A DNA stretch of 64,000 nt from IMG/VR virus record IMGVR_UViG_2563367078_000003, positions 46,946-110,945 of that record; one strand, written 5' to 3'. Position 1 is the stretch's first letter; each line of letters begins with the position of its first letter. Shown piece after piece: positions 3,314 through 41,460 of this stretch. The notes below the pieces were generated by a model. That model was given only the letters and a program-made list of their open reading frames with translations, did no database searches and was not told where the DNA came from. The position numbers and the translations under genes were made by a program. Origin of the DNA: a virus. Lineage: Duplodnaviria > Caudoviricetes.

Positions 3314-3835
3314 TCAGCTTTTGGGTTCGAACGCGCAGCCGCAGATGTCGCAGGTGATGCCGCCTTCGGTGAAGCGACCTGCCGCGATCCGGACCGGCCG
3401 GGAGGGCTTGCACTTACACCAGATCGTGATGTTGTTCTTGTCCGGCCTGGGCGGCTCGATGACCGGCTCCGCGTCCGGGTCGACGTCGGCACTGGCGCGC
3501 TTCAGGTAGTCGATGTACATCCTGCCCGCGTGACGCCACGCATACTCCACGTCTTTCACGATCTTGTCGACGCCGTCGATCTTGGCGAGGTCGGTTCTCA
3601 GCGCCTGGGCGTGCTTGTTCGGCAGGTCCGGAAAGTCGAATCTACGGTCGTAAATGCGATGCATCCGGTACACCAGCTCGCGATACAGCGGCTCCGGCAG
3701 TGTGTACGTCCACGCGAAGCCCCGGCCGGTGGATCTGCCGACAGGCGCTGGGAACCGCACACCCGTGGTCTCCTTACGGTGCGCGATCTCCAGCGCCTCT
3801 TTGGATTTCCCGCTGATCACCAGCTCGGGCATCAA
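3314..3835 (-). CDS. hypothetical protein with C-terminal Zn ribbon
   Basis: CKC...CDICG C-terminus; overlap with next gene. Confidence 0.7.
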   Translation of the reverse strand: MMPELVISGKSKEALEIAHRKETTGVRFPAPVGRSTGRGFAWTYTLPEPLYRELVYRMHRIYDRRFDFPDLPNKHAQALRTDLAKIDGVDKIVKDVEYAWRHAGRMYIDYLKRASADVDPDAEPVIEPPRPDKNNITIWCKCKPSRPVRIAAGRFTEGGITCDICGCAFEPKS

Positions 3836-13680: not shown

Positions 13681-13691
13681 AACGATGCCTC

Positions 13692-14117
13692 CTATTGTGT
13701 TAAAACGCCCAGCAGAGTCGTCGCCGCCAGAACTGCGGTGAGGACTCCGTAGGTTTCGATCACGACCCGCAGCCACGAACTACCGGGCGTATGACGAGCC
13801 CAGGTGATGCCAGCGGCGACGACCGCGACCATGACCAGCGCCAGCGCGATAGCTGGAATCCCGGTCAGGAACAGGTACGGGAATGCGGGGATGAGCGCGC
13901 CGACTCCGGAGGCAATTCCGATCGCCGCCGGAGTCGCGAAACTTCCACTGTCGGAAAGCCATTCGCCGCAGCCCATGCCGATCACTTCCGCGATAGCCAG
14001 GCCGATTGCGGCGAGCAGGATCGCGGAGGGATGGTTGTGCAGCGACATGAGAACGCCTGTGCCGCAGGTCAATCCGTCGACGAGACCGAAGATCACCGCA
14101 CTTTTCAAGATTTTCAT
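13692..14117 (-). CDS. VIT1/CCC1-like membrane protein
   Basis: FGLVDGL...AEVIGMGCGEWLS...GALIPAFPY. Confidence 0.7.
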   Translation of the reverse strand: MKILKSAVIFGLVDGLTCGTGVLMSLHNHPSAILLAAIGLAIAEVIGMGCGEWLSDSGSFATPAAIGIASGVGALIPAFPYLFLTGIPAIALALVMVAVVAAGITWARHTPGSSWLRVVIETYGVLTAVLAATTLLGVLTQ

Positions 14118-17802: not shown

Positions 17803-19617
17803 TTAGATGACCCCGAGATCATGGATCGCGCCCATAATTGCTTGAATGCGCTCGAAAGCACGCGCCACCGGATCGACCGGAATGCGTTGACCGATAGTGA
17901 TGTTCCACGTCGGCGCGGTTTTGCGATCCCAGGTCAGCGTAATTTCCGAGACACGGTCCACGTAAATAGACCCGGGAGGTGTGCCTCGAACGGTAGAGCC
18001 GATTCTGTCGCCGACATAAAAGTGACCGAAACCGTTTTGACCGACCAGCCATGGCAAGCCGTCAGCGACCGAGAATTTATGCGTGAATATCTCGCGCGTC
18101 GCCCACATCGATGCCCGGAGTCCAAGCAGTGCGGAAATGGTGTAGGCGTTGTCTCCTCCAGCCGCGAATCGCTCTCTGTAATGACTGAATCCAAGGCTTT
18201 GCGCGCGACTCGGATCCTTCCATGCCATAAAACTCAGAAAAACGTCGGTATATAGCGGCTTGAGCAGGGAATCCAACATTCCGCCAATAGGTGGAACGCC
18301 GATCATCATTGCGATCATGTCTCCGGCCATATTCACGGTCGCGGAGATCAATTCATTGACACCGGGCATCGAGTGTCCGCCCGTTACGTGCTGAACGTCT
18401 TTCGCTGGAGAACCGGTGAACAATGACGTCTGAATACCCGAGTGGGCTTCTTCGCGGTAGATGATTCCGGGGCACTGCGGCAGCGTTCCGATCCATCCCG
18501 GCTGGTAGTACTCCTCGGGGAAGTTCGGGTCGGGAATCGGCAGCGTGCCGTCGTCGAAACCATCGGTGGCGAACTGCTGCACGGCATAGAGGAGACCGGT
18601 GAACAAATCGCCGCCGAAACTGGTCCCGGTGGTGTACCCCGATTTGTCGAGGATATCGATGATCAGGCAGCCGTTGCGGAGCTTAGCGCCTTCCCAGGGG
18701 GGTGGATCTCCGGTGAGATATCTTCGGAATGTCGGCGTGAGCTGAGCGTCCTGAAGAATCGGCTTCGCGACGGTGAAGAAATCTTTGAACCGCGCCAGAA
18801 GAATAGCGAAGACAGAATTGTCCTGCCCGACCGGATCAGGCGCGACGACCATTGACCACGACGACTGATCCAGGTCGAACCACTGATTAGCATCGAGGGG
18901 GTCGTCCGGCAGCATCCACAAAGACGATTCGAGCCGGAGAATATTACAGAAAAGCGTCGTTTTCAGACACCACTTAGCAGGTCCGAAAAGCAGCCACCAT
19001 TTTGGAAACTGGATCTCGGCGGGCAAAAAAGGATTGGAGCATATTTACCTTGCCAGGTCCACCCCCCGCCTAGTCTTCCGGGTAATCCAGAATTTCAGCG
19101 GGGGGCGGACCCAGCACAGGATGTGCTTCAATTCTTCGAAATCATGCTTGAACAGCACCCGGCAAATCATCGTGCCGTCTTGCTGTTTCTCGATTTCGTA
19201 GTGATCCATGCGGCCCGACCAGCGGACCCCATCCTTATCGACGGTTACATGGATATTCTTGGTCGTACGACCATCATGGTTGATAACCCATTGACTGAGG
19301 TAATAGTCGACAGGCATCTCGATCTTGCCCGAGCCGGTCTCGCCGTCGATCTCCTGGAAACTCGCGGTATAGGCGTGCGCGACCCTCCCTCGCAGGATCC
19401 AGTTGCCGTCGAATAGTTTGACGGTCGGCATCCTGAGGCGGTTGTCGCGCTGTTGTTTGATGTTGTTGACGATCGACCAGTATTCGGCGTCGCAATCGAT
19501 CGGAGTTACTTCGGAATCAGGCTCGCCGGGGCCGCGATGAAACGGCTTTCGCAGCGTTACGGTCTGAGCCTCTTGCCGATATCGGCGGGCGTCTGTTGGC
19601 CCGAGGTTGTGAATCAT
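17803..19617 (-). CDS. large minor tail protein (L5 gp28-like) interrupted by an in-frame stop-containing 72-nt insertion
   Basis: ORFs 19045..19617 and 17803..19026 are in one frame; KHILCW | SNPFLPAEIQFPK rejoin on removing 19039-19110 (~580 aa). Confidence 0.8.
19039..19110 (-). other. 72-nt hairpin insertion: candidate bypass element or mini-intron
   Basis: 20-bp stem 19116-19097 / 19070-19051, inner 6-bp stem, in-frame TAA at 19045-19047. Confidence 0.7.
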
Positions 19618-23600: not shown

Positions 23601-26600
23601 GGACCCGGCGTGCATGATCGCGCTTCCGGTTTTCTGCAGGCCGGTCTGACCGTTGGAATCCTTCTTCGTCGCGAAGCTCGCTACAGCGCCGCCAGCCTTC
23701 TTCGTGTCGTTGACGACGGCCGCGCCGAACTCCTGGACCCCCTTGGGCATCTTGTTCCAGATGTCTTGGAAGACCTTGGTTTGCGTTGCGAGGTAACCGA
23801 TTCCGGCTGCGACGCCTGCGATAGCGCCCGCAATCAACACGAACGGGTTCAGGTCCAGTGCCGCGTCGAGCAGGAACCACCCGGCGGCTAGGGGAGCCAG
23901 GATCGGCAGCATCGGCTGGAGCCAATTCATCACTGCGGCAAAGCCGGTCGCGAGATCCTTGATGATCGGGGCGATGGCGATGATCGCGGGGAACGAACTC
24001 TGCACGAGAATGCCGATGATCTGGCCGACGTCCTTCATCACGCTCGCGATGGCGCTGGCGATGACGGGCAGATCCTTCATCCCGGGACCGAGGCCGTTCA
24101 GAAACCCCGCAGCCAGGTCATTGACGCCTTGCAGCAGCGTCGACAGCGCCTGAGAAGCGGGTCCGGCGTACTGGCCGATGAATGTGCCGATCTGAATGAG
24201 GAACTTACCGACCTGATCACCCAGCGAGCGCCACAGATCACCGAAACCGGCCGACCCTGCAGACATCTGCGAGAACATCGTGCCGATATCGGTTCCGAGT
24301 GAGCGCATCCCGTCGCGGAAGCCCGTAACAGCTGGTTGCGAATTCTGCAGCGCCGTAACGACTCCCGGCACGGGCCCGAGCATCAACCCGGTCAGTGCGT
24401 CGGTGAACGGCTGAACGTAATCGGCCGCGCTCTGGAAGCCCTGCTGAATAACCGGCTTCATGTCCATGAACTGCTGTTTCAGCGACTGCATCGCGTTGTG
24501 CAACGGGCCCTGAAGTGGCGCAGCGAGATCCGCGAACATCGCAGACATCTGAGACATCGCGCTATTAGCGTCCTTGGTCGCTTTCGCGAGTTCGCTATTG
24601 GCGCGGGCCTGTTCCTGAAGCGCGACCTTGACAGACTCGGCGGCTTTGAGCTGAGCTTCGGCGGTCTCGCGCTGAGTGTTGACGAGATCCTGTTGCGAGA
24701 CCTTCTGCTGATAATCTGCGTCAGCCAGAGCCTCTTTACCCTTGATGACCTTGTCGTTGCCTTCGACACCCTTTTTGGCTGCGACAGCCGCGTTGTCCTG
24801 AAGCTGCTGATTCTTCACGCGAACTTCGTCTTGGTGGGCTTTCGCTTCATCGATTTGATTGAAAGCGTCTTCGTAATCAAGCGGCGTAACGTCTTGCCGC
24901 TTACCGAGTTGGGTGAGGTTTTGGTATGCGCGCGCTACACCAATGTCGGCGGAACGCTGATTGATCGGAGCCTGCTCGAGCTGCAGCTGCAGATCCTCGA
25001 GTTCCTGGCGAGCGTCGCGGTATGCCTCGGTGAGTGACCGGCGGGCATCTTCCTCGTTGCGGTCGGCCATCTGTACTTCGTGCTGCGCTGCCGCGATCCT
25101 CTGGCTGGATTCGATCGCCGTATCGGCGACATCTCGGTACGCCTGGGCGAGGTCACGCTTGGCGGTCTCGGCTTGCAGCTGCGCGGCGTCCATCGCCTCT
25201 TTGTGGCTGGCGGCGAGCCGCTTGTTGACCGCGATAGCCGCTCCACCGGCTGCGATGACACCAGCGGCAAGACCGGTCGTCATCACCGCGCCCAGAGCCG
25301 CAGAGCCGAGGCTGACCAGCGCCATAGCCGACGCAAGATCCTTGACCGACTTCGTAGCCTTATCAGCAGCGCTCTTGATGCCGTCCAGGCCGCTGGAGTC
25401 GGTATCGACCCTTGCAGTCCGCGCCTTTGCGACTTCGTCGAGTTGGGCTCTCGCTTCGGCGGTGTCGGCCTTCGCGGTGATCACTGCCTCGCGCTGTTGT
25501 GCGGAGTGCTCGAACTGCGCATTCGATATACCGGTCGCAGCTGTGTTCTTGATCGTCGAGATAGTGCGGCTGGCGTCGGCGTCGACTTGGTCGCGATTTT
25601 CGCCCCGGTAGACGGCCACCTGACGCGTCGCGACGGCTCGGTCGATGTCGCGTTTAGCTCCTGCGCTCCGTTGGTCGATGTCGAGCTTTTTGTTTCGTGC
25701 CGCGAAATCGAGGTTGTCCTTCGCGCTGGTGATCATCGTCTGGATTTCCATCGGCCGCTTGCCGGGGAAAGCCTTGTCGAGTTCGTCCTTCGCGTTCTTC
25801 AGATCAAGATCAATTTGAAGTTTGCGGCGCTTGGCTACGTCATCGATCGCGGCCTTCGCATCACCGGCTTGCGCCTGGACCCTGATCGTCGCTGTACGAT
25901 CCTCGGCGGTCTTGTCGATCTTCGCTTTGGCCGTTGCCGCCGATTCCATCGCTTTCTGAGCCTGGGACTGCTTGCGTGCGTGAGCTTTTTCCGCAGCGCT
26001 CTGGTCGCGAGCGTCCTGGACGATTCCGGCTTTGGTTTTCTTCGTGGTGGCGCGTTCGTCGATCCCTTGCTGATCCGCCCACTGCTGGACTACGTTCTTT
26101 TGCCGCAGCTCATCCATCCGCGCGGAGTTCTTGGCGTTCTTCGCCTCGGATTCGAGCCCGCTCTTTTCATTGAACGCCGCACGCGCCGATTGCGGATTTC
26201 GCCTTCGATCGGGATATCGTTCATTGACGTCGCGTTTCGCCTGCCCGAGCCCTTCATCGATCTCGACGTAGCGCTTGCGGCGCACCTCTTCGATCGCGTA
26301 ATTCATCCTGTTTTTCTGGGCGATCAGGTCGCTCATGCGCTTTTGCGAGGCGGCGTCGGCTTCGATTTTCGCTACGATCGGCGAGACGCGGGGTTTCGCG
26401 AGTTCGTTGAGTTCGGCATTGGCTTCGGAGACGTTCTCGGGGGTTGCGACGAACTCCGCTGCGCGTTTCTGGTTCAGCCCGTCGAAAGCGGCTGCTGCTT
26501 CGGAGACGCCTTGGACTTCCGTGCCGATGACGTTGGTGCGGTCGCGCATAGCGTCATCGGCAGCAGTGGCGGCTTCGCGAGCATTCTCGGGCCGATACCG

Positions 26601-26960
26601 GATGATCACCGTGCGGTCGTGCGCAGCCTGGTCGAGATCCCGCACCGCGTCCGCTGTCTCGGCTACAGCCTTCATCGTCACCGGACGGAAGCGGGCGGTT
26701 TCGTTGAGCTGCCCCTCGGCGGTCTTGGTGTCGGCAACGCCGTGGAGATGAACGTCCTGGGGCGTGCTCGTCAGAGCCTTGATTTCCGCTATATCATCGT
26801 CGAGGCCGGACAGCTTGACGCGGATGTTGATCGCCTCGTCGGCCAATTTTTGGAGTTCGGTGCGCGTCTCCAAAAAGTCCTTGCGAGCGGCTTCCATCGC
26901 CGGTTTACCGAGATATGCGGCGGTGATGGAGAATTCCAGCGAGGACCTTACTGTTGCCAT
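20640..26960 (-). CDS. tape measure protein with NlpC/P60-like peptidase and lytic transglycosylase domains
   Basis: 2106 aa helical; TM region; DCSGL..GHMA; RESGWN..AINDWD.N..G.PSKGL.Q. Confidence 0.92.
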   Translation of the reverse strand: MATVRSSLEFSITAAYLGKPAMEAARKDFLETRTELQKLADEAINIRVKLSGLDDDIAEIKALTSTPQDVHLHGVADTKTAEGQLNETARFRPVTMKAVAETADAVRDLDQAAHDRTVIIRYRPENAREAATAADDAMRDRTNVIGTEVQGVSEAAAAFDGLNQKRAAEFVATPENVSEANAELNELAKPRVSPIVAKIEADAASQKRMSDLIAQKNRMNYAIEEVRRKRYVEIDEGLGQAKRDVNERYPDRRRNPQSARAAFNEKSGLESEAKNAKNSARMDELRQKNVVQQWADQQGIDERATTKKTKAGIVQDARDQSAAEKAHARKQSQAQKAMESAATAKAKIDKTAEDRTATIRVQAQAGDAKAAIDDVAKRRKLQIDLDLKNAKDELDKAFPGKRPMEIQTMITSAKDNLDFAARNKKLDIDQRSAGAKRDIDRAVATRQVAVYRGENRDQVDADASRTISTIKNTAATGISNAQFEHSAQQREAVITAKADTAEARAQLDEVAKARTARVDTDSSGLDGIKSAADKATKSVKDLASAMALVSLGSAALGAVMTTGLAAGVIAAGGAAIAVNKRLAASHKEAMDAAQLQAETAKRDLAQAYRDVADTAIESSQRIAAAQHEVQMADRNEEDARRSLTEAYRDARQELEDLQLQLEQAPINQRSADIGVARAYQNLTQLGKRQDVTPLDYEDAFNQIDEAKAHQDEVRVKNQQLQDNAAVAAKKGVEGNDKVIKGKEALADADYQQKVSQQDLVNTQRETAEAQLKAAESVKVALQEQARANSELAKATKDANSAMSQMSAMFADLAAPLQGPLHNAMQSLKQQFMDMKPVIQQGFQSAADYVQPFTDALTGLMLGPVPGVVTALQNSQPAVTGFRDGMRSLGTDIGTMFSQMSAGSAGFGDLWRSLGDQVGKFLIQIGTFIGQYAGPASQALSTLLQGVNDLAAGFLNGLGPGMKDLPVIASAIASVMKDVGQIIGILVQSSFPAIIAIAPIIKDLATGFAAVMNWLQPMLPILAPLAAGWFLLDAALDLNPFVLIAGAIAGVAAGIGYLATQTKVFQDIWNKMPKGVQEFGAAVVNDTKKAGGAVASFATKKDSNGQTGLQKTGSAIMHAGSSVGGAVVSAGKSLGKTFAPELQDMKATFGGIWSSLKAEWDKDLKPAFDSLWSSLKVLWNNSKPILDFIGGAFVAIGKVVMSVISGVIGPIIGVFVDTIKNIVNAVRGLIMMISGFFETVKGVFEICFNFFKTIFGLLKGVFTGDFSTFKSGLDGIGNGFKDMLSGLGTFFAGVWHLVTSLFGEVIDILKGAWKTVEGIVLGIVNGIIHWFEWLYDEMVGHSIIPDLVNDVIKWFESLPDKLIKLVEDLGKKIADAFTKLWGDVKDIASKAWDALKNDTGIGSFVDGIKGTFSGLLKDIGDIWDGIKKVFATPINWVIGIWNNDIVGKIPGLGKIDTIPGYASGGQPDGSPGYINGTGGSREDKHVVAVSNREYIVNAEATSRNRAVLDAMNFGGERAMIPGFALGGTPAHAEAEVPGFSLGGIAFRHMRKAAGLRFADGGPTDGSTNPAIARALQWAAGYQGRPYNDQGWLDCSGLASGIYDSLLGRTPKREFTTTSDFTALGFVPGRGGIMEIGVTPLPGNYGHMATTLAGHKLESGGVHDDIRVDGPAIGADDSQFADHYYLPGKFFNPAYSGAGADGDKGSGGGFFGMIGSAFQAVVGGVRSGISDLFQKLTDPVLNAIPDPMIGGQKGFLGSFPKQIATKSRDDIANLIRGHESTNTIGGAIPTGDRLAVIDAALALTHTPPPGTKEQWEAGMNTLVERESGWNTGAINDWDDNAKAGNPSKGLAQTTGTTFAAFAAPGHKNIFEGVDNLAASINYIKSKYGGIDRVQQANANMPPKGYATGTTNAKKGWSLVGELGPELVLFGGGETVIPNNMLGNLNDNWNAAAQANGLGLKAQSAGQAFAKANFDQFVGDLGGSTSGDGLAEAAFTQVPSYLLALDAYQKSGKLGKPAYQTLSNQIQGDLSKPPANPLDPGQEGVTTQPGTPPPGAQPQQQQNQNPLSQFLHPTEVHFHVSDVDEAMGKWKQTQREATLGFDPLGIFGS

Positions 26961-31357: not shown

Positions 31358-34063
31358 TTACGCCTGGCCCTGAAGGACCTTGAAAGCGTTCGGAACCAGA
31401 ACGACCGAGTTGTTCATCCAGATCGCATAAATACCGCGCTGGCCGGTCGGACGCTGGTTCGAACCGAATACCTGGGGGATCAGCTCGACACTCATGCCGA
31501 TACGGTCCACAATCAGGAACTGCTGGAAATCACCAAAGATCAGGAACAGGTCGCCGGTAGCGTGGGTCGACGCCATGACCGAGGACTCCAGAGCTGGGTA
31601 ACCCAGCAGCTCCGAAGGCATTCCCGCGCCAATGCGCTGCCACAGCTGAGCGCCACCGTACTGATCGAACTGGCGAATCTTATTGTAATTCGCGCGGTGA
31701 GCGATAAACTTGGCGTTCGCATTACGCCAGCGCGGATCGAGGCTTTCCTCGAGGTGGTAAACATCAGCGGCAGTGAATGCCTGACCCGGAGTCGCGGCCA
31801 CGTAGGAACCGCCCGGCAGAGTGCCGATGACGCCGCCCGCGTTGGTGCCGGTGCCATCCCCCAGCATGAACGAGTTCGCCTCTTCGCGACCCTTGGCGTC
31901 AACCAGAGCGCGGGTGATCTCGGAACGCACCTGCGACCAAGACTCAGCCAATTCGTACGAGAACGGAATGAAGCCAGCGACACGGTTGGTCTTCACGGTC
32001 GGCTGGGTCAGGGAGAAGCTGTTGTCCGACGCTTCCGACGCCTCAGCAGAACGGGTGACGCTGGTGCCCGCAGACACGACGCCCATCCATTCCTTGCCGA
32101 CGATCTGCTCGACGCGGGAAACGCTCCGCAGCGGATCGATGACGCCAGCACTCGTAAGGATTACAGTAGGATCGAGTTCGAACGGCACAGCATACCCGCC
32201 GCTACCGTCAGTTCCCAAAGACAGAGCACGATATTCCTCGCCGGACAGCATCTGCGGCGTACCCGCAGCAACCGTCTTCGACCAGGCGCGCTCATACAAG
32301 CTCGAGCCGGTCCGCAGCATCCGATGAGCCAGGGTGGCGTTCTCGTCGTCGACGGTGTCCAGCAGCGCCTGTGCGCTCGTCTGAGCGTCCTCCTTGGCAA
32401 CCATGCGGGTGTAGTTGGCGCGCTCGATTGCACGGGCGGCGTTGTCCCGGACCAGCTGCAGGTAGTCGTCCTCGTTGTGCGACGCCTGGCGGATCTCGTT
32501 CAGGTCGTAGATGTTCTCCGGCTTGCGGCTACCGGTCGGAGCAGACGAGAACGAACGCTCGGTGCGGCCCTCCCGCTCGCCCTCGGCCAGCTCGTCCATC
32601 CGCTTCAGAATCGCGGCGATACGAGCCTCCACCTTCGGCCGCTCATCGCGGAGTTCGGTGTTCTCGGTCTCGACGTCGGCAGGCAGCTCAGCGTCACGGA
32701 ATTCGACATTGATCTCGGCAACGCGGGCATCGATCTCCGCCAGGCGCTGCCGCAACTCGGTAAGAGTCACAGGGGTTTTCCTCTTTACGGGAGCCTCATC
32801 GGCTCGGGTTTCTTTCTTTTCGGACTCCCGTGCGCGCAAGGTGCCTTCATCGGCGGCGTTGTCGTCTTCGGGGTTAATGGCGTCGGTCAGGGTGTCGCGT
32901 TGTTCGACGGCGCTGTCCTCAGCGGATTTGGATTCGATGTCAGCGCCGAACTTCTTCGCTGCGGCCCTGATCTTCGATTTGATTGCCTGCAATTCATCGG
33001 GGCTGTAGCCCTTCTGGTTTTTCGGCATGTTTATGTACGACCACGCGGCCCTGACGTGAGCCTTCGTGTCGATCGGGTATTTGCCGTTCTTCGGATCTGC
33101 GTAAGCGACGTCGCCGTAAGGCTTTTTGTCATCGCTGGCGCGGCCGTCCGGCATAGTCGGGGAATGCGTCATACAGACGCCGTTGGAAAAGGAATGCTCT
33201 ACGCCGTCTTCATCGACATACGTATCGACCTCGGCGTCGACATCCTTTGTGTCGTCATCGCCATCGGTGTCGCCGTCGAGTGCGGTTTCCGGCGGATCGG
33301 TCGGGCCGTCGCGGAGTTCTTTCGCCGTCTCGATCGCCTTGTCGACATCCGCCATATGAATGTGGATCTCGGTCTTCGGAGGTTCGCTGCGGACGGTTTC
33401 ATCGGCCTTCGGAGCGGCTTCCAGCTCGGCCATCGTTCGGCGGTATTCATCGACAATCGCCTGGCGCTGTTCGTCGGTGATCTCGTCCATCGAACGGACG
33501 CCAACCGAAGTGCCTTCGTAAGCCGGATAAATCACAGGCCCGGCTTCCATCAGCTTGACCTCGCGGATAGTCCGCTGCAATGGGCCGCGATCTCCGGCAT
33601 CCCACAGGAGCCTGTTCAGCTCATTGCCGCCAACGCTCCGCCCCTGAGAGTCGGACCAGTCCTGGCGAGTGACAGTGAAAGTGAACGACATTCCGCTGAT
33701 GGCCTGCGCTTCAATGGCCTGGCGGATCGGCTCGACGAGGTCGTTTTCAAAAAGCCGTGCCTCTACATACAAGCCGTGGTCGTCTTCGCGCATCTCGGTG
33801 AAGACGCCGATCGGGACGCCACCAGTGCGGGAATCACGGCCGTGCGCGAACTGGCAAATAGGAAGCTTGCCCTCTTGGAGGGTCTTTTTGAAGCAGCCAG
33901 GAGCCAAGCGCTCGGTAAACGCGCCTTCGAAACTATTGATTTGCGTGTCTTGTCCAAAAACAGCCGCGTAGCCGCACAACGTTCTCTTATCACTGGGAGC
34001 ATCACCGGTTGCGGCTAGCGTGAAATCGACGTCGCGAGTTATGATTCTATTGGCTGGAGGCAT
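31358..34063 (-). CDS. prohead protease - linker domain - HK97-fold major capsid fusion
   Basis: GYAAVF..GCF..H..GMSF.F..E..P.YEGT protease; GGYAVP, GDF..F.I.DR.G capsid motifs. Confidence 0.92.
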   Translation of the reverse strand: MPPANRIITRDVDFTLAATGDAPSDKRTLCGYAAVFGQDTQINSFEGAFTERLAPGCFKKTLQEGKLPICQFAHGRDSRTGGVPIGVFTEMREDDHGLYVEARLFENDLVEPIRQAIEAQAISGMSFTFTVTRQDWSDSQGRSVGGNELNRLLWDAGDRGPLQRTIREVKLMEAGPVIYPAYEGTSVGVRSMDEITDEQRQAIVDEYRRTMAELEAAPKADETVRSEPPKTEIHIHMADVDKAIETAKELRDGPTDPPETALDGDTDGDDDTKDVDAEVDTYVDEDGVEHSFSNGVCMTHSPTMPDGRASDDKKPYGDVAYADPKNGKYPIDTKAHVRAAWSYINMPKNQKGYSPDELQAIKSKIRAAAKKFGADIESKSAEDSAVEQRDTLTDAINPEDDNAADEGTLRARESEKKETRADEAPVKRKTPVTLTELRQRLAEIDARVAEINVEFRDAELPADVETENTELRDERPKVEARIAAILKRMDELAEGEREGRTERSFSSAPTGSRKPENIYDLNEIRQASHNEDDYLQLVRDNAARAIERANYTRMVAKEDAQTSAQALLDTVDDENATLAHRMLRTGSSLYERAWSKTVAAGTPQMLSGEEYRALSLGTDGSGGYAVPFELDPTVILTSAGVIDPLRSVSRVEQIVGKEWMGVVSAGTSVTRSAEASEASDNSFSLTQPTVKTNRVAGFIPFSYELAESWSQVRSEITRALVDAKGREEANSFMLGDGTGTNAGGVIGTLPGGSYVAATPGQAFTAADVYHLEESLDPRWRNANAKFIAHRANYNKIRQFDQYGGAQLWQRIGAGMPSELLGYPALESSVMASTHATGDLFLIFGDFQQFLIVDRIGMSVELIPQVFGSNQRPTGQRGIYAIWMNNSVVLVPNAFKVLQGQA

Positions 34064-34653
34064 CTATCTAGCTCCTCGATAAACTCCTCAGCAGTCTTCG
34101 CATTCTTCCGAAGGTTGCACTGCTGGCAGGAACGAACGAGGTTCCACCAATGATCGGTGCCGCCTCGAGATAATGGATTCATGTGATCGACATGCATCGA
34201 CTCAGCGGATTTCCCGCAGTAATAGCAGGGGTCGTTGGCTATACGTTTGCGCCATTCAACCGAGTCGATCTTGTCTTGGGCCGTCATGCCGACTGCGCCT
34301 TGGTGACGCCTTCTGGCGCTGTGGGCGCGGAAATATTCAGGATGGCCGTCTCGCCACTCTTTGTTCATGGCGAGGATGTGCTCTTTATTCGCTAGGTAAC
34401 GATCCCGGAAGTAGCCAGGATTGGCCTCGCACCAGTTCTTGAATCGCTCCTGCGAGGCTTCTTTGTTGCGCCAGTAGTAGTCACGCATGTCCGCCAGGTT
34501 CTTGTCGCGGTTCTCGTAATATCGGGCGCGCTTATTGGCTAGCAGCTTTTCGCGATTTTCCGCTTCGTAAGCTTTTCTGTAGTGCGGTCTGCACTTCTTT
34601 TTGCAATAGACTGGATCGTTGCAATTTTCGATCTCGCAAACAGGCTTACTCAA
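34039..34653 (-). CDS. HNH endonuclease inserted between portal and capsid
   Basis: CYYCG..HVDHMNPLSRGG..WNL..C..CN..K. Confidence 0.88.
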   Translation of the reverse strand: MSKPVCEIENCNDPVYCKKKCRPHYRKAYEAENREKLLANKRARYYENRDKNLADMRDYYWRNKEASQERFKNWCEANPGYFRDRYLANKEHILAMNKEWRDGHPEYFRAHSARRRHQGAVGMTAQDKIDSVEWRKRIANDPCYYCGKSAESMHVDHMNPLSRGGTDHWWNLVRSCQQCNLRKNAKTAEEFIEELDRCLQPIES

Positions 34654-34665
34654 GGGCTTTAGTCC

Positions 34666-36192
34666 TTATTGCTGCTTTGATTGCCCTTGCTGCGGGCTTT
34701 TCTTTGCGGGCTTTACGGGCTTGACCGGTTCTGGACCGTCTGCTTTGTTCGGGTCCGCAGCCAATTGCTGATCGCGAGGAGGCAGCGTTTCGGTCGGGGC
34801 GTCGCCGGAGTAGTCGGTCATATGGCCGAGGCCGGGAGCCATCAACTGGACCGAGAAAAGGCCGCTGTGCTCGAGCAGAGTCCAGTCCTTTTCGATCAGC
34901 GCCTTCACGACCGACTCTGGCGTGTAGCCTTCTTGGACGAGCCGCGCGATAGTCATTGCCTCTGTCTGCTGCAGCTGAGCGACGATTTCGCGGTCCTCTT
35001 GCAAGAACGAGATATCGCGGTCGTCGTACCAGAGGCGGCAGTTCGCAGGGACGGTGATCAGCGGCGCGTACGCGGCACACAAATCACGCCACAGCGGCCG
35101 GATCGTGCCGTTCGCGAACTGATCAGCGGCTGCCTGGTAGTTGCCCTCATTGAGAGCGGAACCGCGCATGCCTTCCGTCAGGCCGACAACGGTCGGAGGA
35201 ACCCGCGCGGCGGCGGCGATGCGCAATTCGGCGATGGAAGTCAGCTTCGAGAAGTCGATTTCCTGGATTTTCGACCCGAGCGGGGAAACCGTAGCGCCGC
35301 CACCGAGATACAGCGTCTCGCCAGCGTGTGACAAACCGTGCTTGGATTGGTTCATCATCGTCATGAACTCGTGGAATTGCTCGGAGGTCACGGTCGGATC
35401 GAACGACACCAGCAAATTCGGCTGCGCGGAGTTGTTGAAGTAGTTGACTTTGTAGGTCGATGCGGCTTCATCGGAGATGACTTCTTTGATGATCGGAGTC
35501 ATCCACGACATGCCGCGATACTGCGCGAGAGGATCCGGAATGGGAGCCCAGTGCGCGACAATGCCGTTCGAGCCGTCAGCGGGGAACAATTCCCACTTCG
35601 TTTTGTCGTCAGTATTGCCGGGCTTGTAGATGTACCCCTGGATATCGGAGTGAAGCGCTTCCTCGGGGTTCTTCGTCAGAACGATCGACACCCAATCCGG
35701 GCGCAACCTGCGCAATCGAGGACCGTCAGGGCCGTCTTCGCGCAGCACGTAATGGTTGCCGCAGAGGTCGACATCTTGTATCGCGTGCGCGAGGAGCTGA
35801 GAAGTGGTGCCGTTGGGCCATGGTGTGCGCAGCAGCCTGATCGACCGTTCGTTTTCGTCGGTGAAGTCTCCGGGGCGGCCTTTGCTCATTTTCTGGAACG
35901 CGAACCGGACTTCGGTGAAAACCATTTGCCGGGCGAGGCAGCACGCGAACACGACGCCGCTGGACTTGTATCCGGCGTTGACGTACCCGGCGAAGTCGTT
36001 GGGGATTGTTTCGTGGCGCTTATTACTGGAGGCATCGTAGGTTACGAACGGAAAAGCACCGCCGAAGCCGCCTGCGATCGGATAGGCGCTGCCTTGGAAG
36101 GTGAAGTATTCGGCGAGGGCGTTTTGATCGACGACCGGGAAGCCTTGATCTCGCTTTTCCGGGCGGCGCAGGAGAGACCAGAGATTGGGCAT
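34666..36192 (-). CDS. portal protein (HK97-like)
   Basis: GN.Y..LRPD.V..RGMS..IAAA..VPP..G; follows terminase. Confidence 0.9.
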   Translation of the reverse strand: MPNLWSLLRRPEKRDQGFPVVDQNALAEYFTFQGSAYPIAGGFGGAFPFVTYDASSNKRHETIPNDFAGYVNAGYKSSGVVFACCLARQMVFTEVRFAFQKMSKGRPGDFTDENERSIRLLRTPWPNGTTSQLLAHAIQDVDLCGNHYVLREDGPDGPRLRRLRPDWVSIVLTKNPEEALHSDIQGYIYKPGNTDDKTKWELFPADGSNGIVAHWAPIPDPLAQYRGMSWMTPIIKEVISDEAASTYKVNYFNNSAQPNLLVSFDPTVTSEQFHEFMTMMNQSKHGLSHAGETLYLGGGATVSPLGSKIQEIDFSKLTSIAELRIAAAARVPPTVVGLTEGMRGSALNEGNYQAAADQFANGTIRPLWRDLCAAYAPLITVPANCRLWYDDRDISFLQEDREIVAQLQQTEAMTIARLVQEGYTPESVVKALIEKDWTLLEHSGLFSVQLMAPGLGHMTDYSGDAPTETLPPRDQQLAADPNKADGPEPVKPVKPAKKSPQQGQSKQQ

Positions 36193-36362: not shown

Positions 36363-37949
36363 TCAACCGCGATAGAACCAGATATTCGCCGGTTTGGTGA
36401 AAATGTGCTTTTTGTAGCCGAAATAGGCGAGTGTCATCGCGGTCAGCGGGGTAATGTCGGCCGAGGATTCGATCTTGTCCCACGCCCACAGCTCTTGAAG
36501 TTTGCGGGTGTTCGCGTTCGCGACGGCGATATCGAGAGGAGCTTGGTCGATGTGCGTGAACTCGCCTTTTTCCTTGTTGCCCTTCAGCACGATCGAGTCT
36601 TTGAAGTCGCCGCAGCCTTGCGCGTATTCGCGGGTGGTGACGGTTTCGACTTTGACGCCGCGTGATTCGAGTTCGGGAATCAGTCGACCGGCCGGAGTAG
36701 CGGGATTCACGACAACGAAAGCCGGTTTGTTGGCCTTCCAGATGTCGACGACGCGCTCAACAGCCCATTTGATACCGGGGCGATAGTCGAAAAGCTTTTC
36801 TTCTTCGATGCCGGTGATTTCGCCGTGGATCTGCTTGTCTTCGTTCGCGCCTACGGCGGTGATGCACGTCCAGTCGGCGTCGGGCGAGGAGTCCAGAGCG
36901 AGGCAGAACTTCCCTTGCAGCTGCGACAGCGCGTTACGCCGGTCATCCCACGCGGTTTTCGAGATGACACGCCAGCCACCGTCCTCTGCGGGCCAATCAC
37001 CTACGGACAGACGCTCTTTCGCGAAGCCGGCGGGCGACATCGCCTTCTTCTCGGTCTCGCGGATGTACTCCTCGGAGATCCGAATTCCCAAGGCGGGGTT
37101 GGCTTTCGCCCACGTGCGGGGGTCGTTGGCGTCGTCGTGGTCTTCGCAGTCCGGCGGGCAGTACGACGTGCACAGTTCGACGCTCCACTCCATCCAGCCG
37201 AAGCGGACTTCGCGGGCTTCCTTGGCGATCACCTTCATGGCGCGGTTGCGGGCCCGGCCGAAGTGCTCGGCTTCTGCGGTACCGGCGGACCCGGCGTAGA
37301 TGATCTGGTGATTCGGCTGCGCGGATACCGTGGGCATGGAGGCTTCGATGACCGAGCTGTCGAGGTTTTTCATCGCCTCGTCGTAGACAACCAGCGGAGC
37401 CGAGAACCCGCGTCCCGTGCTGCCCGACCTCGCCTTGAAGATCAACTTCTGGCCGCTGCGGAGATAGATGCCTTCTTGGCCGTGACCGGCTTTGATCTGC
37501 AGGACTTCGCTGCGGAGGTCGGGGGTGTCCTCGATCAGTCGGCGGATGCGCTCGAAGTGCTTCTGCGACGTGTCGAATAGGTGCGCCGAGTGGATGATCT
37601 CCTTCTCGCCGAACAAAAACAGACCAGCCAGTTCGCGAGCTTCGAGGATTCCGCCTTTTCCGTTCTGTCTGGCTACCACAAGCCCGAATTCGGCTGCCGC
37701 CCACTGGTTTTCGTAGCGGCCGTTGACCTCGTCCCAGTACTCTTCGTCGCGGATCGCGAGCATGTTCTCCAGGACGAGGCACTGCCACGGATCGAGTTCC
37801 AGGCCAGCGACTCGCGCGAGATCAATCGCCTCGGAAGCGCGGCTGTCGACCGCCTTGTACTCTGGGGGCAGCCTTCGTGCCGAGTCCGGAATCGTGTGAT
37901 GGCTCGGGTACTGGTCGCCGATCAGCGGCGCGGTTACGTATGGAGGCAA
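36363..37949 (-). CDS. terL: terminase large subunit
   Basis: PWQ, ARQNGKG Walker A, VYDEA Walker B, ANPALG, LD, DITPL. Confidence 0.95.
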   Translation of the reverse strand: MPPYVTAPLIGDQYPSHHTIPDSARRLPPEYKAVDSRASEAIDLARVAGLELDPWQCLVLENMLAIRDEEYWDEVNGRYENQWAAAEFGLVVARQNGKGGILEARELAGLFLFGEKEIIHSAHLFDTSQKHFERIRRLIEDTPDLRSEVLQIKAGHGQEGIYLRSGQKLIFKARSGSTGRGFSAPLVVYDEAMKNLDSSVIEASMPTVSAQPNHQIIYAGSAGTAEAEHFGRARNRAMKVIAKEAREVRFGWMEWSVELCTSYCPPDCEDHDDANDPRTWAKANPALGIRISEEYIRETEKKAMSPAGFAKERLSVGDWPAEDGGWRVISKTAWDDRRNALSQLQGKFCLALDSSPDADWTCITAVGANEDKQIHGEITGIEEEKLFDYRPGIKWAVERVVDIWKANKPAFVVVNPATPAGRLIPELESRGVKVETVTTREYAQGCGDFKDSIVLKGNKEKGEFTHIDQAPLDIAVANANTRKLQELWAWDKIESSADITPLTAMTLAYFGYKKHIFTKPANIWFYRG

Positions 37950-39456: not shown

Positions 39457-40149
39457 CTAATACAGATTCGACCGCGTGACCGAAGTACTGAGTCGGTTAT
39501 CTTGATGAATGATGGTCGGGCTGGGAATAGCGACTGTGAGCGCTGTATAGGTGCCCGCGAAGGTGACGCCGGTCCATGCTCCGGGAGTCTGACTGGATGC
39601 GATGGCGTTGAGTTCGGCGCTGGCAATGAATGCGTCGGTCGTGACGCCAGAAGTGCCCGTGTTAGCCGATTGGTAATTGCTCCAGCCACTGGGAGCGCCG
39701 GTCGGGTCGTAGAAGGTCGGCCGCGTTCCGGCATCGATGATCAACCACTGATAGCTGATATTGCCGAGGGGTGGCGTAAGAGCTGGAGAGGTGGGCGATG
39801 TCGAGCTGCCGGTTGCCGATGCGACCGCGATTCCGCCGCCGGGCCATGCACCGGTCAATCGTAGGGACGCCCAGGCCGCCTGCACCGACGCGCTCGAGGT
39901 GACCGTCAACGAGCTGACCGGGCCCTGCTCTCCGGTGAAGAGGGTGATGTAGATGCCGCTGGCCGCGCCCCAGGTACCTGCGATGCTCCAGCCCGCCGAG
40001 GACGTGGAAAGTGTTGCGGCCGATGGGGTTGTCACGAAGACGAGATAGAGGTCACCGGTATTGGCGCTGGTGTTGGGGAGCGTGACGGAGTACGAAGTTC
40101 CTGCGCTCGAGGTGTTTCCGGTACTGCGCTGGGCGACGGCGATTGTCAC
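39457..40149 (-). CDS. Ser/Thr-rich beta protein, fibre-like
   Basis: GDL..FV..GW.. pattern typical of actinophage fibre domains. Confidence 0.7.
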   Translation of the reverse strand: MTIAVAQRSTGNTSSAGTSYSVTLPNTSANTGDLYLVFVTTPSAATLSTSSAGWSIAGTWGAASGIYITLFTGEQGPVSSLTVTSSASVQAAWASLRLTGAWPGGGIAVASATGSSTSPTSPALTPPLGNISYQWLIIDAGTRPTFYDPTGAPSGWSNYQSANTGTSGVTTDAFIASAELNAIASSQTPGAWTGVTFAGTYTALTVAIPSPTIIHQDNRLSTSVTRSNLY

Positions 40150-40169
40150 TGCATCACCACCCGAGGACG

Positions 40170-40187
40170 ATCGTTAGCTTTGCTAAA
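40170..40187. promoter_or_regulatory. 18-bp repeat, copy 2
   Basis: identical to 17782-17799. Confidence 0.65.
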
Positions 40188-40189
40188 CA

Positions 40190-40866
40190 CCAGACTTGCC
40201 CGCGCGGTGGTTGTGGATTACACCGGGAGAGAAGGGAAGTGGAGGGAGCGCAGGGGTACCCCGGTACTGCGAAGCACGGATACACCCTTGACGCGATTAC
40301 ACCGGTCGCTTCGGTCGCTACGGTCGCTTGGTATGTACGCAGGCGCGGGGATTATTCGGCCTGCCGGGACTGGGATACTGCACAGAGTCCGGCCACCGGC
40401 GCAGAGCACGGGGAACCCGGATGCCGCCAGATGATCCGCCCAGCTGCCGCCAGGTCGCTCCGAGTCCGCCTTTACGCGCAACTCTGTGTCATCGGATGGT
40501 TGCAGCAGCCCCTCTGACGGGCGACGACTGCGCGGGCAAGGCGCATCACCCGCGACGGTGCCTACGGGCGCAACGGCCAAGGGGTGAGTGGCTGATCAGC
40601 CAGAATCGTGAGGTAGGATGTGGTCCTACGGCGCGGATCTGCTATACCCAGGTTCTCGCCCAGGCCCCGGTTGATGCTGTGAACATCTTCCGGGGCTGAC
40701 TTGTATCTGGGACAGTAGCACAGCGATCTCGAGGTGCACGTGAACCCGGCGGCCTCGCGATTGAGGTTCGTCCGCCCTACCGTGTATCATGGTGTGCGCG
40801 GGACGCATTAGCGTCTCTGAAGTGAACCCGGCAGCCATCCGGACGGTTGGTGAGCCGGGTTTCGCG
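40190..40866 (+). ncRNA. candidate large structured RNA, antisense to late operon
   Basis: 720-nt gap with no credible ORF; many nested stems whose wobble pairs are G-U only on the + strand. Confidence 0.6.
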
Positions 40867-40869
40867 CAT

Positions 40870-41460
40870 CTAGGACAGGGTAAGTGTCGCAGCGAGCGAC
40901 CAGATAGCCCCACTGGATTTCGTTCCGAGGCTTTGGATCTTGTGATTCAGCAATACCGGCGAGGTGCCGACAGAGGCGAGAGTCGTTCCAGCGGTGATAG
41001 TTCCGGACGCGACCGCCCAGCCCCATTCCTGCCAGGCGAAGTTCGCATTGCCCGACTGGTACGTACACGTGATATTGATCGTGCCGTTGGACTGCGTCGG
41101 AGAACCTGAGTCGGCTTGCTGGTAATACGCATTCGCCGTACCGTCCGCGCCGAGCGCAGTATCACCAATCACCGCAGTGGTCGTGGAGTTACCAACGCCG
41201 ACAACCGCATCCGCGTGAGCCAGTGGGGTTCCGCCGCCACCGATGATCAGATTGGTGATTCGGTTAAGGCCGACCGTGGTCAACAGGTTGCCGGGAACGT
41301 CGACAATGTCGTCCGGGACCAGCAGCCCGATAGATTCCAGATGCCGGAGGTGATATCCGGTGGGCTCGTGCCCGAACTGGTTTGTCAGTCGCTCGACGGT
41401 CTCAGGCTCGTACTTGATGACCTTCGCCGTCATATTCCATTTGATGCCGTCGCCAGCCAT
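40870..41460 (-). CDS. structural protein (fibre-attachment type)
   Basis: NLLTT.G..VGVG.STT....DT.L..ANFAWQEWG..NHK...LGTK. Confidence 0.75.
   Translation of the reverse strand: MAGDGIKWNMTAKVIKYEPETVERLTNQFGHEPTGYHLRHLESIGLLVPDDIVDVPGNLLTTVGLNRITNLIIGGGGTPLAHADAVVGVGNSTTTAVIGDTALGADGTANAYYQQADSGSPTQSNGTINITCTYQSGNANFAWQEWGWAVASGTITAGTTLASVGTSPVLLNHKIQSLGTKSSGAIWSLAATLTLS

What the first reader, a model, noticed from the sequence alone, without database searches (positions are those of the whole stretch)
40190..40866. ~680-nt multi-domain structured RNA encoded antisense inside the virion operon
Seen: a 720-nt gap in an otherwise tightly packed operon. A long-range stem CUUGCCCGCGCGGU (40195) / ACUGCGCGGGCAAG (40526) closes a ~330-nt domain. 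Nested stems include GCACAGAGU/ACUCUGUGU (40380/40481), UGCUAU-CCCAG/CUGGG-GUAGCA (40640/40707), GGCCCCGG/CCGGGGCU, GUAGGA/UCCUAC, GGCCUC/GAGGUU, GACGC/GCGUC and GAACCCGGC/GCCGGGUUU. The wobble positions I checked read G-U on + (A-C on -), so the RNA runs opposite to the flanking genes. Internal repeats: GAUUACACCGG x2, CGGUCGCU x3, UGCCGCCAG x2, GUGAACCCGGC x2. I could not match it to RNase P, tmRNA, group I or group II hallmarks. Known: phages encode large ncRNAs of unknown function (GOLLD, ROOL). Inference: a new large ncRNA class; a link to the 72-nt insert is possible but unsupported.
Basis: partly seen in the sequence, partly recalled or inferred. Interest (0 to 1): 0.85.

Follow-up and report, generated by a model that had tools for sequence, protein, structure and literature searches.

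The report
Replication-origin-type RNA in Nocardia prophage
The 720-base gap holds a real, conserved folded RNA gene, but it belongs to the RNA-only replication origins already known from plasmid-like mycobacteriophages, found here in an integrated prophage that has no partition genes.

Summary
The gap (40150-40869) is real and non-coding. It holds two separate things. One is a 519-nt conserved element (40217-40735). The other is an unrelated 88-nt hairpin module (40783-40870).

The 519-nt element has 18 long copies in 17 of 200 other same-genus genomes, at 70-75% identity. Covariation is strong: 39 base pairs with compensatory changes, reached by 0 of 500 shuffles. Rfam has no match.

It is not a new class. 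[quoted passage not shown] The reciprocal profile search hits only this element in the 10.4-Mb genome.

The setting is new. The prophage is integrated, with an integrase at the island edge and no ParA/ParB. The element lies about 2.3 kb upstream of the terminase and carries an extra distal domain.

The published transcript direction and a conserved extended -10 promoter (16 of 18) point to the - strand, the same direction as the flanking genes. Wobble statistics are mixed, and a short + strand antisense RNA is possible.

This scan found the same family before on other DNA (e1-5912100).

The parts
40217..40735 (.). Conserved structured element of 519 nt, the whole family-homologous unit in this subfamily.
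   Evidence: It is the only nhmmer hit of the subfamily profile in the whole genome (C99:105399-105909, E 4.3e-129). There are 18 long copies in 17 of 200 other same-genus genomes at 70-75% identity. Alignments: A1, A2, A3.
40217..40705 (-). Predicted long RNA. The start near 40705 is inferred from the promoter. The 3' end is not defined and may run on towards the 230-aa gene.
   Evidence: A conserved extended -10 lies just upstream. The published homologous transcript runs opposite to parA, which corresponds to the window - strand. The - strand consensus has 101 pairs, 39 of them with compensatory changes; 0 of 500 shuffles reach this.
40712..40720 (-). Extended -10 promoter TGCTACTGT (pattern TGnTAnnnT).
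   Evidence: TANNNT sits at a fixed position, 12-13 nt before the conserved ACAAGTC, in 17 of 18 subfamily sequences; 16 of 18 also have the TGN extension. There are 5 sequence variants, and they differ only at the N positions. It is the only conserved TANNNT site on the - strand.
40489..40572 (.). Most conserved core block, including CCCCTCTGACGGGCGACGAC, the hairpin 40529-40545 and the hairpin CCCG...CGGG. It is shared with Cluster A phage ori regions.
   Evidence: A profile built only from Cluster A sequences hits C99:105672-105753 (window 40491-40572) at E 2.2e-9 across the whole genome. blastn to AnnaL29 and Loser gives 77.5% over 87 nt. Hairpin variants are listed.
40227..40255 (.). Purine-rich tract on + (pyrimidine-rich on -) at the end of the element next to the 230-aa gene. 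It is conserved in both clades.
   Evidence: Alignments. The second colinear hit of the Cluster-A-only profile covers window 40227-40369 (E 1.2e-3). A role as an R-loop or primer site is inference only.
40379..40491 (.).
   Evidence: It is helix 12 on - (11 pairs, 4 with compensatory changes) and helix 8 on +.
40341..40362 (.). Hairpin with the conserved loop GAUUAYUC (read on +).
   Evidence: The stem covaries across both clades (GCUCGG/CGAGC, CGUCGG/CGACG, CUCCGG/GGAG) while the loop stays nearly invariant.
40303..40329 (.).
   Evidence: repeat D8. The same repeated pentamer region is present in same-genus and Cluster A copies. Its function is unknown.
40580..40712 (+). Distal domain specific to this subfamily, with four hairpins. 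It is a candidate short + strand countertranscript of roughly 40626-40708. A -10-like TAGGAT lies at 40614-40619 and a GC-rich terminator-like hairpin at 40664-40696.
   Evidence: This is the only conserved TANNNT site on + (16 of 17). In covarying pairs of this domain, G-U outnumbers A-C 15 to 3 on + (my tally). Two more pairs are mostly wobble on +: G-U in 15 of 17 and U-G in 11 of 17. Caveat: the TANNNT also forms part of a covarying hairpin stem, so the promoter reading is weak.
40783..40870 (.). Separate 88-nt conserved module of two hairpins. It starts at the stop codon of the 196-aa gene, looks like a terminator on -, and is not part of the RNA family.
   Evidence: About 90% identity at 16 places in 14 same-genus genomes, none with a long RNA match. 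In loci L020 and L021 the neighbouring protein is not homologous. A 40-nt core matches an intergenic gap in the tail operon of Gordonia phage Zitch.
40195..40211 (.). It lies outside the conserved element.
   Evidence: The repeat is present (I1), but these columns are not conserved in A1.
40870..41460 (-). Upstream flanking gene, 196 aa, function unknown.
   Evidence: phrog_23653, E 1.3e-36.
39457..40149 (-). Downstream flanking gene, 230 aa, Ser/Thr/Ala-rich, first gene of the block that leads to the large terminase (36363-37949).
   Evidence: No family hit. GC3 is 0.73. Homologs were found in 2 of 200 other same-genus genomes. In the closer one (G068) no match to the 196-aa protein was found and the gap to the nearest upstream open frame is under about 10 nt.

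Best explanation
The element is a member of the RNA-based, initiator-protein-free replication-origin family first defined in non-RepA parABS Cluster A mycobacteriophages.

Shown here:
- Homology to the experimentally defined ori segments.
- A covariation-supported multi-hairpin fold.
- No conserved reading frame.

Inferred:
- A long RNA of about 490 nt starts near 40705 on the - strand, from its own extended -10 promoter (40720-40712). It runs in the same direction as the late genes and ends around the pyrimidine-rich tract at 40255-40227.
- A short + strand RNA (about 40626-40708) may be antisense to its 5' end.
- By analogy with the phage ori and with ColE1, the long RNA would act in cis to start DNA synthesis by host enzymes, and the short RNA would set copy number.
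- In this integrated prophage that would give replication of the excised or infecting genome without a phage initiator.
For: Homology:
- The same-genus profile hits the ori regions of LadyBird (E 2.1e-14), Alma (8.7e-13), Gladiator (2.1e-9) and AnnaL29 (1.5e-19), and also Gordonia phage Daredevil (8.8e-13).
- Those hits fall inside the published ori coordinates and the Alma and LadyBird ori deletions.
- A profile built only from 13 Cluster A sequences finds just two hits in the 10.4-Mb genome. Both are colinear and inside this element (E 2.2e-9 and 1.2e-3).
- In all 6 Cluster A records I fetched, the element lies directly upstream of parA.

Published function (PMC7157519, sections 10, 11 and 15 read):
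- About 600 bp upstream of parA is sufficient for autonomous replication.
- Stop codons placed in the overlapping ORFs do not abolish replication.
- Ori deletions destabilise lysogeny.
- The RNA is transcribed opposite to parA.

Non-coding:
- 208 of 234 indel runs (A3) and 216 of 233 (A2) are not multiples of three.
- The GC frame plot is flat across the gap.
- The five gap ORFs I scanned have no Pfam hit.

Structure:
- On the - strand there are 101 pairs, 39 with changes on both sides, and 96.6% of cells are paired against 86.8% in shuffles. 0 of 500 shuffles reach the observed values, and slid controls give 6-13 such pairs.

Strand of the long RNA:
- The extended -10 is conserved in 16 of 18 sequences and is the only conserved TANNNT on -.
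- In the broad 26-sequence core alignment, helices common to both strands show 5 G-U against 31 A-C on +. In the three cleanest hairpins the count is 4 against 13.
- In the window, Daredevil, the L077-type prophages, L056 and L063, the flanking genes run in the - sense of the element.
Against: - There is no partition system. Pfam CbiA (PF01656) matches nothing in the island, and tblastn with Cluster A ParA/ParB finds nothing with E below 1 in C99:1-140000.
- The element sits in a chromosomally integrated island of about 110 kb, with a tyrosine integrase at its edge. A plasmid-state origin has no obvious use there.
- In Alma and LadyBird the ori deletion left lytic growth normal.
- Homology to the phage ori covers only about two thirds of the element (profile positions 8-371). 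The distal domain has no counterpart.
- Other same-genus copies lie beside ordinary chromosomal genes and defence-like islands, not in phages.
- The strand is not settled. The + strand consensus has the lower energy (-128.1 against -119.0 kcal/mol). It also shows strong covariation (32 pairs, 0 of 500 shuffles). The distal domain favours + by wobble counts.
- No conserved - strand TANNNT was found in 12 Cluster A regions.
- There are no expression data for this genome.
Confidence: 0.5

Rival explanations
1. It is the same RNA family but does not act as an origin here. It could be a regulatory or competitive RNA. One version is a trans-acting incompatibility or exclusion determinant that interferes with the replication of incoming plasmid-type (parABS) phages using the same origin type. 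Another is a cis-acting leader that controls the downstream late genes.
For: - The prophage is integrated and has no par genes.
- Origin-specific incompatibility is published: an Et2Brutus prophage was maintained in 0% of cells under selection for an Et2Brutus ori plasmid.
- Copies occur in non-phage chromosomal islands.
- In the window, Daredevil and the L077-type prophages, the - sense RNA lies directly upstream of genes on the same strand that lead to the terminase.
Against: - The only experimental function known for any family member is replication.
- In Cluster A phages the RNA is convergent with the neighbouring genes, so a leader role cannot be general.
- No target or terminator-readthrough signature was identified here.
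Confidence: 0.22
2. One reading: the functional molecule is one RNA of about 500-680 nt on the + strand, antisense to the late genes.
For: - The + strand consensus energy is lower (-128.1 against -119.0 kcal/mol).
- Many G-U pairs are invariant on +, for example six pairs in the distal domain and the long-range stems.
- Covarying pairs of the distal domain show 15 G-U against 3 A-C on + (my tally).
Against: - There is no conserved promoter-like site upstream of the + sense 5' end. The only conserved + TANNNT lies inside the element, at 40614.
- The four long-range helices predicted only on + have no compensatory change in 19 pairs.
- The published transcript of the homologous phage region runs the other way.
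- The broad core alignment favours -.
Confidence: 0.13
3. It is a relic: an origin module inherited through mosaic exchange that no longer has a function in this prophage.
For: - It sits at a mosaic junction. A related prophage (G068) has the 230-aa gene homolog, but no match to the 196-aa protein was found there and no RNA-sized gap lies upstream of it.
- There are no par genes.
Against: - All conserved helices and the promoter are intact in the window copy.
- Copies at 70-75% identity keep their pairing through compensatory changes, which indicates purifying selection on the lineage.
Confidence: 0.1
4. It is a protein-coding gene or pseudogene, or a double-stranded DNA site such as cos or pac upstream of the terminase.
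For: - Open frames of 84-124 codons exist on both strands.
- The position about 2.3 kb upstream of the large terminase is where packaging sites often lie. That is general knowledge and was not tested here.
Against: - About 90% of indel runs break the reading frame. No single frame is kept among homologs. The five gap ORFs have no Pfam hit.
- Compensatory base-pair changes indicate a single-stranded fold, not a duplex recognition site.
- The Cluster A homologs lie in the centre of the phage genome and act as ori.
Confidence: 0.03

Closest known systems
RNA-based ('non-RepA') prophage replication origins of parABS Cluster A mycobacteriophages: Alma, LadyBird, RedRock, Gladiator, Et2Brutus (Wetzel et al. 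2020, mBio, PMC7157519)
   Same: Sequence homology over about two thirds of the element. No conserved ORF. Shared blocks: the purine-rich tract, the GGTCG repeats, the GAUUAYUC-loop hairpin and the CTCTGACGGGCGACGAC core.
   Different: The window copy has no adjacent parABS and lies in an integrated prophage with an integrase. It sits upstream of the terminase block, not between the tail genes and parA. Relative to the flanking genes it has the opposite orientation. It carries an extra distal domain of about 130 nt with its own - strand promoter. The paper's main text describes no secondary structure (0 occurrences of 'secondary structure'). Replication activity of this copy is untested.
ColE1-type origins (RNA II primer and RNA I antisense). 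Properties are as summarised in the introduction of PMC7157519 and otherwise recalled.
   Same: It works like this by analogy. There is no initiator protein, a structured RNA of about 500 nt, and possibly a short antisense RNA over its 5' end.
   Different: There is no sequence or model similarity; nothing in Rfam matches. The host phylum is different. Priming, dependence on RNase H or Pol I, and the antisense RNA are all unshown.
Large phage-associated ncRNAs GOLLD and ROOL
   Same: A large, ornate ncRNA carried by phages.
   Different: No Rfam model reaches even E 0.4 on this stretch. Unlike those RNAs, relatives of this family have an experimentally shown function.

Membership tests
RNA-based (non-RepA) prophage origin of Cluster A actinobacteriophages | Sequence homology to the experimentally defined ori segments | tested here: met
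   Profile hits to LadyBird, Alma, Gladiator and AnnaL29 at E 2e-9 to 1.5e-19. The reciprocal Cluster-A-only profile hits only this element in the whole genome. Coordinates fall inside the published ori segments.
RNA-based (non-RepA) prophage origin of Cluster A actinobacteriophages | No protein product needed; no conserved ORF | tested here: met
   208 of 234 and 216 of 233 indel runs are not multiples of three. The GC frame plot is flat. The five gap ORFs have no Pfam hit.
RNA-based (non-RepA) prophage origin of Cluster A actinobacteriophages | Lies beside a parABS cassette, in a phage without an integrase | tested here: not met
   PF01656 matches nothing in the island. tblastn with four Cluster A ParA proteins and one ParB finds nothing with E below 1 in C99:1-140000. 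A tyrosine integrase lies at C99:18378-18881, at the edge of the low-GC island.
RNA-based (non-RepA) prophage origin of Cluster A actinobacteriophages | Expressed as a non-coding RNA in the lysogen, opposite to parA | not testable with these tools
   No sequencing run was listed for this stretch. Only a conserved - strand promoter is predicted.
RNA-based (non-RepA) prophage origin of Cluster A actinobacteriophages | The fragment alone supports autonomous replication | not testable with these tools
   This needs the vector-transformation assay of PMC7157519.
ColE1-type RNA II / RNA I replicon | Match to known RNA I / RNA II models | tested here: not met
   No Rfam match at the gathering threshold. 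The best match of any family has E 0.43 and is an unrelated sRNA.
ColE1-type RNA II / RNA I replicon | A long primer RNA with a short antisense RNA over its 5' end | tested here: inconclusive
   Conserved -10-like sites occur on both strands in the expected arrangement, and the distal domain has a + strand wobble bias. There are no transcript data, and the + site doubles as a hairpin stem.
Self-splicing intron or other insertion that splits a gene | The flanking ORFs are halves of one gene in relatives | tested here: not met
   Homologs of the 230-aa protein in 2 of 200 other same-genus genomes start at their own N-terminus. The 196-aa protein has no match beside them. Rfam intron models do not match.
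tRNA, tmRNA, RNase P, GOLLD, ROOL and all other Rfam 15 families | A covariance-model or ARAGORN match | tested here: not met

The most novel reading that the evidence does not exclude
This RNA may be a portable, protein-free replicon module with ColE1-like sense and antisense control that moves among actinobacterial mobile elements: plasmid-prophages, integrated prophages and defence-type genomic islands. In islands it sits at the very edge, with its purine-rich end facing outward. It could drive replication of the element after excision, or in place. It could also serve as an incompatibility weapon against rival plasmid-phages.
Probability: 0.3. Interest if true: 0.75.

Novelty: new variant of a known kind. 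Interest (0 to 1): 0.55.

Why it matters
RNA-only origins in Actinobacteria are known from one functional study, which gives no structure for the RNA. This window, together with its relatives, adds several things:
- A covariation-backed fold.
- Conserved promoter positions.
- A defined conserved core.
- Evidence that the module occurs well outside parABS phages: in integrated prophages of another genus, in Gordonia phages, and at the edges of chromosomal islands.

That makes the mechanism directly testable: which strand primes, where DNA synthesis starts, and whether an antisense RNA sets copy number. It may also provide small origin cassettes for Nocardia genetics. It does not add a new class of RNA.

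Tried and rejected
Protein-coding gene or pseudogene. Rejected by frame-breaking indels, by frames that are not kept among homologs, by the lack of any Pfam hit for five gap ORFs, and by the flat GC frame plot.

tRNA or tmRNA. None found in the window.

Known RNA families. None matched.

Single-sequence thermodynamic stability as evidence. The z-scores are only -1.8 and -1.6, from 20 shuffles each, so this was dropped in favour of comparative evidence.

It is not conserved.

By eye on the alignments, complementarity holds in the window and one clade but not in L003, L010, L013 or L017. The GTAGCA arm is better read as the - strand -10.

Intron or gene-splitting insertion. Rejected.

A link to the 72-nt insert at 19039-19110. 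I did not test it directly. It is unsupported because most copies have no tail genes nearby.

Strand assignment from wobble pairs. The result is ambiguous: 13 G-U against 17 A-C in shared helices of the subfamily, 5 against 31 in the broad core alignment, and 15 against 3 the other way in the distal domain (my tally). Some helices in the broad alignment are doubtfully aligned between the clades.

The sigma-70 consensus scanner. It found only one unrelated + strand site in the gap. It found one terminator-like site in Alma and none in AnnaL29.

Expression data. No RNA holder was listed, and no run of any kind was listed.

The neighbouring 423-aa and 71-aa genes in seven same-genus loci. They have no family hit. 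The sources attached to their relatives label them hypothetical proteins of Nocardia. They are host genes and do not explain the RNA.

Literature. Three full-text searches found only PMC7157519 on this RNA. I read its outline, sections 6, 7, 8, 10, 11, 13 and 15, and some find passages. I could not see its figures or its supplements (Fig. S1, Table S1), which may give transcript ends and the phage list. The 2016 parABS paper (its reference 16) is not held.
Full report
**1. The observation**

The window is G000:C99:65182-129181, from a 10.4-Mb genome in 174 contigs. Two - strand ORFs, 39457-40149 (230 aa) and 40870-41460 (196 aa; phrog_23653, E 1.3e-36), leave 720 nt between them.

The surrounding - strand genes form a virion module:
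- large terminase, 36363-37949
- portal, 34666-36192
- an HNH endonuclease
- a 901-aa protease/major-capsid protein, 31358-34063
- a 2106-aa tape measure protein
- minor tail proteins
- endolysin, 12721-13776

The gap therefore lies about 2.3 kb upstream of the terminase, at the head of the late block rather than among the tail genes.

The GC frame plot is flat from 40150 to 40750 and periodic in both flanks. Folding the single sequence is not exceptional: z is -1.81 on + and -1.57 on -, and 2 of 20 shuffles fold as well in each case.

**2. Conservation and fold**

A BLAST search of 200 other same-genus genomes found 18 long matches in 17 genomes. They are 260-510 nt long, 70-75% identical, and cover window positions about 40220-40725. 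Their flanking genes are unrelated to those in the window. At family level, 14 of 400 other genomes match at E <= 1e-6, in 5 of 34 genera.

All three + frames stay open in many copies, but no single frame is kept. About 90% of indel runs are not multiples of three: 208 of 234 and 216 of 233.

RNAalifold results:

| Strand | Pairs | Pairs with compensatory changes |
|---|---|---|
| + | 97 | 31 (32 by the count) |
| - | 101 | 39 |

With the count of structure pairs, 0 of 500 shuffles reach the observed values on either strand. Sliding the partners by 1-3 columns cuts paired cells from about 97% to 34-46%. The element is a real folded single-stranded molecule.

Its conserved extent is 40217-40735. 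The subfamily profile finds it once in the genome.

The stretch 40783-40870 is a different element. It matches at about 90% identity at 16 places in 14 same-genus genomes. None of those genomes has a long RNA match, and the neighbouring genes are not homologous.

**3. Identity**

Rfam 15 has no match, and ARAGORN finds no tRNA or tmRNA.

blastn against the phage collection gave short hits of the core in unannotated gaps of Cluster A mycobacteriophages. In AnnaL29 the hit lies in the 600-nt gap upstream of parA.

The paper reports:
- Non-RepA parABS phages carry a region of about 600 bp upstream of parA.
- That region is sufficient for autonomous replication in M. smegmatis.
- No ORF in it is needed.
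- It expresses a non-coding RNA in the direction opposite to parA.
- Its deletion in Alma and LadyBird destabilises lysogeny but leaves lytic growth normal.

I tested the homology in three steps:
- The AnnaL29 gap matches 128 phage records. These include Gladiator 24464-24912, LadyBird 25881-26247 and Alma 26443-26794, which lie inside the published ori coordinates (Table 4).
- The profile built from the same-genus copies hits LadyBird, Alma, Gladiator, AnnaL29 and Gordonia phage Daredevil at E 2e-9 to 1.5e-19.
- A profile built only from 13 Cluster A sequences, searched against the whole 10.4-Mb genome, returns two hits. Both lie in this element and are colinear.

The homologous part is about two thirds of the element (window roughly 40225-40600). 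The distal 130 nt is specific to the subfamily.

A pattern scan of IMG/VR returned 57 loci, and 30 of them hold a homolog.

**4. Strand**

Window + corresponds to the parA direction in Cluster A phages. The published transcript therefore corresponds to window -, the strand of the flanking genes.

Three lines of evidence agree with a - strand long RNA:
- An extended -10 (TGnTAnnnT) lies at a fixed distance before the conserved start ACAAGTC in 16 of 18 subfamily sequences, and TANNNT in 17 of 18. Variation is confined to the N positions. It is the only conserved TANNNT site on that strand. This places a start near 40705.
- In the broad alignment, helices common to both strand predictions show 5 G-U against 31 A-C when read on +. 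That alignment used 26 sequences, after removing copies above 93% identity from the 42 with a near-complete core. In the three best-aligned hairpins the count is 4 against 13.
- In five phage settings outside Cluster A, the neighbouring genes run in the - sense of the element. These are the window, Daredevil, the L077-type prophages, L056 and L063.

Other evidence points the other way:
- The + consensus has the lower energy.
- Shared helices within the subfamily give 13 G-U against 17 A-C, which does not decide the matter.
- In the distal domain (40600-40712) the covarying pairs favour +, 15 G-U against 3 A-C. Two more pairs are mostly wobble on + (G-U in 15 of 17, U-G in 11 of 17) and would be A-C on -.
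- That domain also holds the only conserved TANNNT on + (16 of 17). It ends in a GC-rich hairpin directly before the - strand start.

One reading that fits all of this is a long - strand RNA plus a short + strand countertranscript over its 5' end. This is inference.

All 12 Cluster A regions I aligned have a conserved + strand -10 just after the core, mostly with the TGN extension. In Alma a hairpin with a T-run follows it. The scanner found none in AnnaL29. I found no conserved - strand TANNNT in those 12 regions, so the promoter of the published leftward RNA remains unlocated.

**5. Setting**

Contig C99 is 396,892 bp long. A low-GC stretch (about 59%, against 66.8% for the genome) runs from about 20 to 130 kb. 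A tyrosine integrase lies at 18378-18881.

No ParA or ParB is present in the island. No serine recombinase is on this contig. The prophage is integrated.

A related prophage (G068) has a homolog of the 230-aa gene. The nearest upstream open frame lies within about 10 nt of it, and no match to the 196-aa protein was found. The element therefore sits at a mosaic junction and does not split a gene.

**6. Other copies in the genus**

Seven loci place the element next to two host genes of 423 aa and 71 aa. The sources attached to relatives of the 423-aa protein label them hypothetical proteins of Nocardia. On the other side lie a C5 DNA methylase, a Z1-domain protein and large helicases.

Other loci border ordinary genes:
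- M13 peptidase
- a metallo-beta-lactamase-fold protein
- an ABC transporter
- RidA
- DUF3017
- a Cys/Met PLP enzyme
- CtaG
- HrpB

Some of these loci also carry VapBC, Fic and transposase genes.

At the 423-aa/71-aa site I compared the 15 closest loci:
- In 3, homology runs on through the RNA.
- One is G108, whose RNA lies about 4.7 kb further on.
- In the other 11, homology stops 17-59 nt before the first conserved RNA position, and different DNA follows.

The RNA is therefore the first feature inside a variable island, with its purine-rich end facing outward. I did not map the other ends of these islands.

**7. Function**

Shown here: family membership by sequence, the fold, and the non-coding nature.

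Taken from the literature: relatives act as initiator-free origins.

Inferred for this copy: the long RNA primes or opens DNA for host replication enzymes, possibly at the purine/pyrimidine tract at its 3' end. This would give the excised or infecting genome a way to replicate.

Because par genes are absent and the prophage is integrated, I put only about 0.5 on this. I keep a regulatory or incompatibility role, the + strand reading, and a relic as rivals.

**8. Novelty**

The kind is known, and this scan has met the family before on other DNA (e1-5912100; one search lists related notes). New relative to the one paper are:
- the covariation-supported structure
- the conserved promoter
- the subfamily-specific distal domain
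- occurrence in an integrated prophage without parABS
- the island-edge copies

Three literature searches found no description of these points.

Noticed in passing
window 40783-40870: An 88-nt module of two hairpins begins at the stop codon of the 196-aa gene. It recurs at about 90% identity at 16 places in 14 same-genus genomes, next to unrelated genes. Its 40-nt core is 95% identical to an intergenic gap in the tail operon of Gordonia phage Zitch. It may be a shared terminator or a small mobile hairpin.
   Followed up: partly
L030:7930-7990 and loci L104-L118 (same-genus genomes): The site downstream of a conserved 423-aa/71-aa gene pair is a hot spot for variable DNA. In 11 of the 15 closest loci, homology stops 17-59 nt before the position where the RNA begins in RNA-bearing genomes. 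The RNA is thus the outermost feature of an island. In 5 of 7 such loci a C5 DNA methylase follows, together with Z1-domain or helicase genes.
   Followed up: partly
L001:3109-3117, L022:1909-1917, L024:1929-1937 (AnnaL29, Alma, LadyBird): All 12 Cluster A ori regions I aligned have a conserved + strand -10, mostly with a TGN extension. It lies just after the conserved core and before parA, and a GC-rich hairpin with a T-run follows about 40-60 nt later. It could be a short countertranscript or an attenuator ahead of parA. No conserved - strand -10 was found for the published leftward RNA.
   Followed up: partly
L025:3003-3354 (Gordonia phage Daredevil, record 3422-3759): A homolog of the ori-type RNA lies in a 1.2-kb unannotated gap between an HNH endonuclease gene and the terminase block of a 90-kb Gordonia phage outside Cluster A. 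Its position and relative orientation match those in the window.
   Followed up: partly
L056:11214-11753 (IMG/VR contig of 72 kb): A full-length copy of the window's subfamily (E 1e-126) lies directly after a Dit-like minor tail gene that follows the tape measure gene.
   Followed up: no
G000:C99, about 20000-130000: The window lies in a low-GC island of about 110 kb (59% against 66.8%), with a tyrosine integrase at C99:18378-18881. I did not settle whether it is one very large prophage or two elements in tandem.
   Followed up: no
window 31358-34063 and 34039-34653: A 901-aa ORF joins a head-maturation-protease domain to a major-capsid domain. An HNH endonuclease gene lies between it and the portal gene.
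   Followed up: no
I did not examine it, and I found nothing linking it to the RNA.
   Followed up: no
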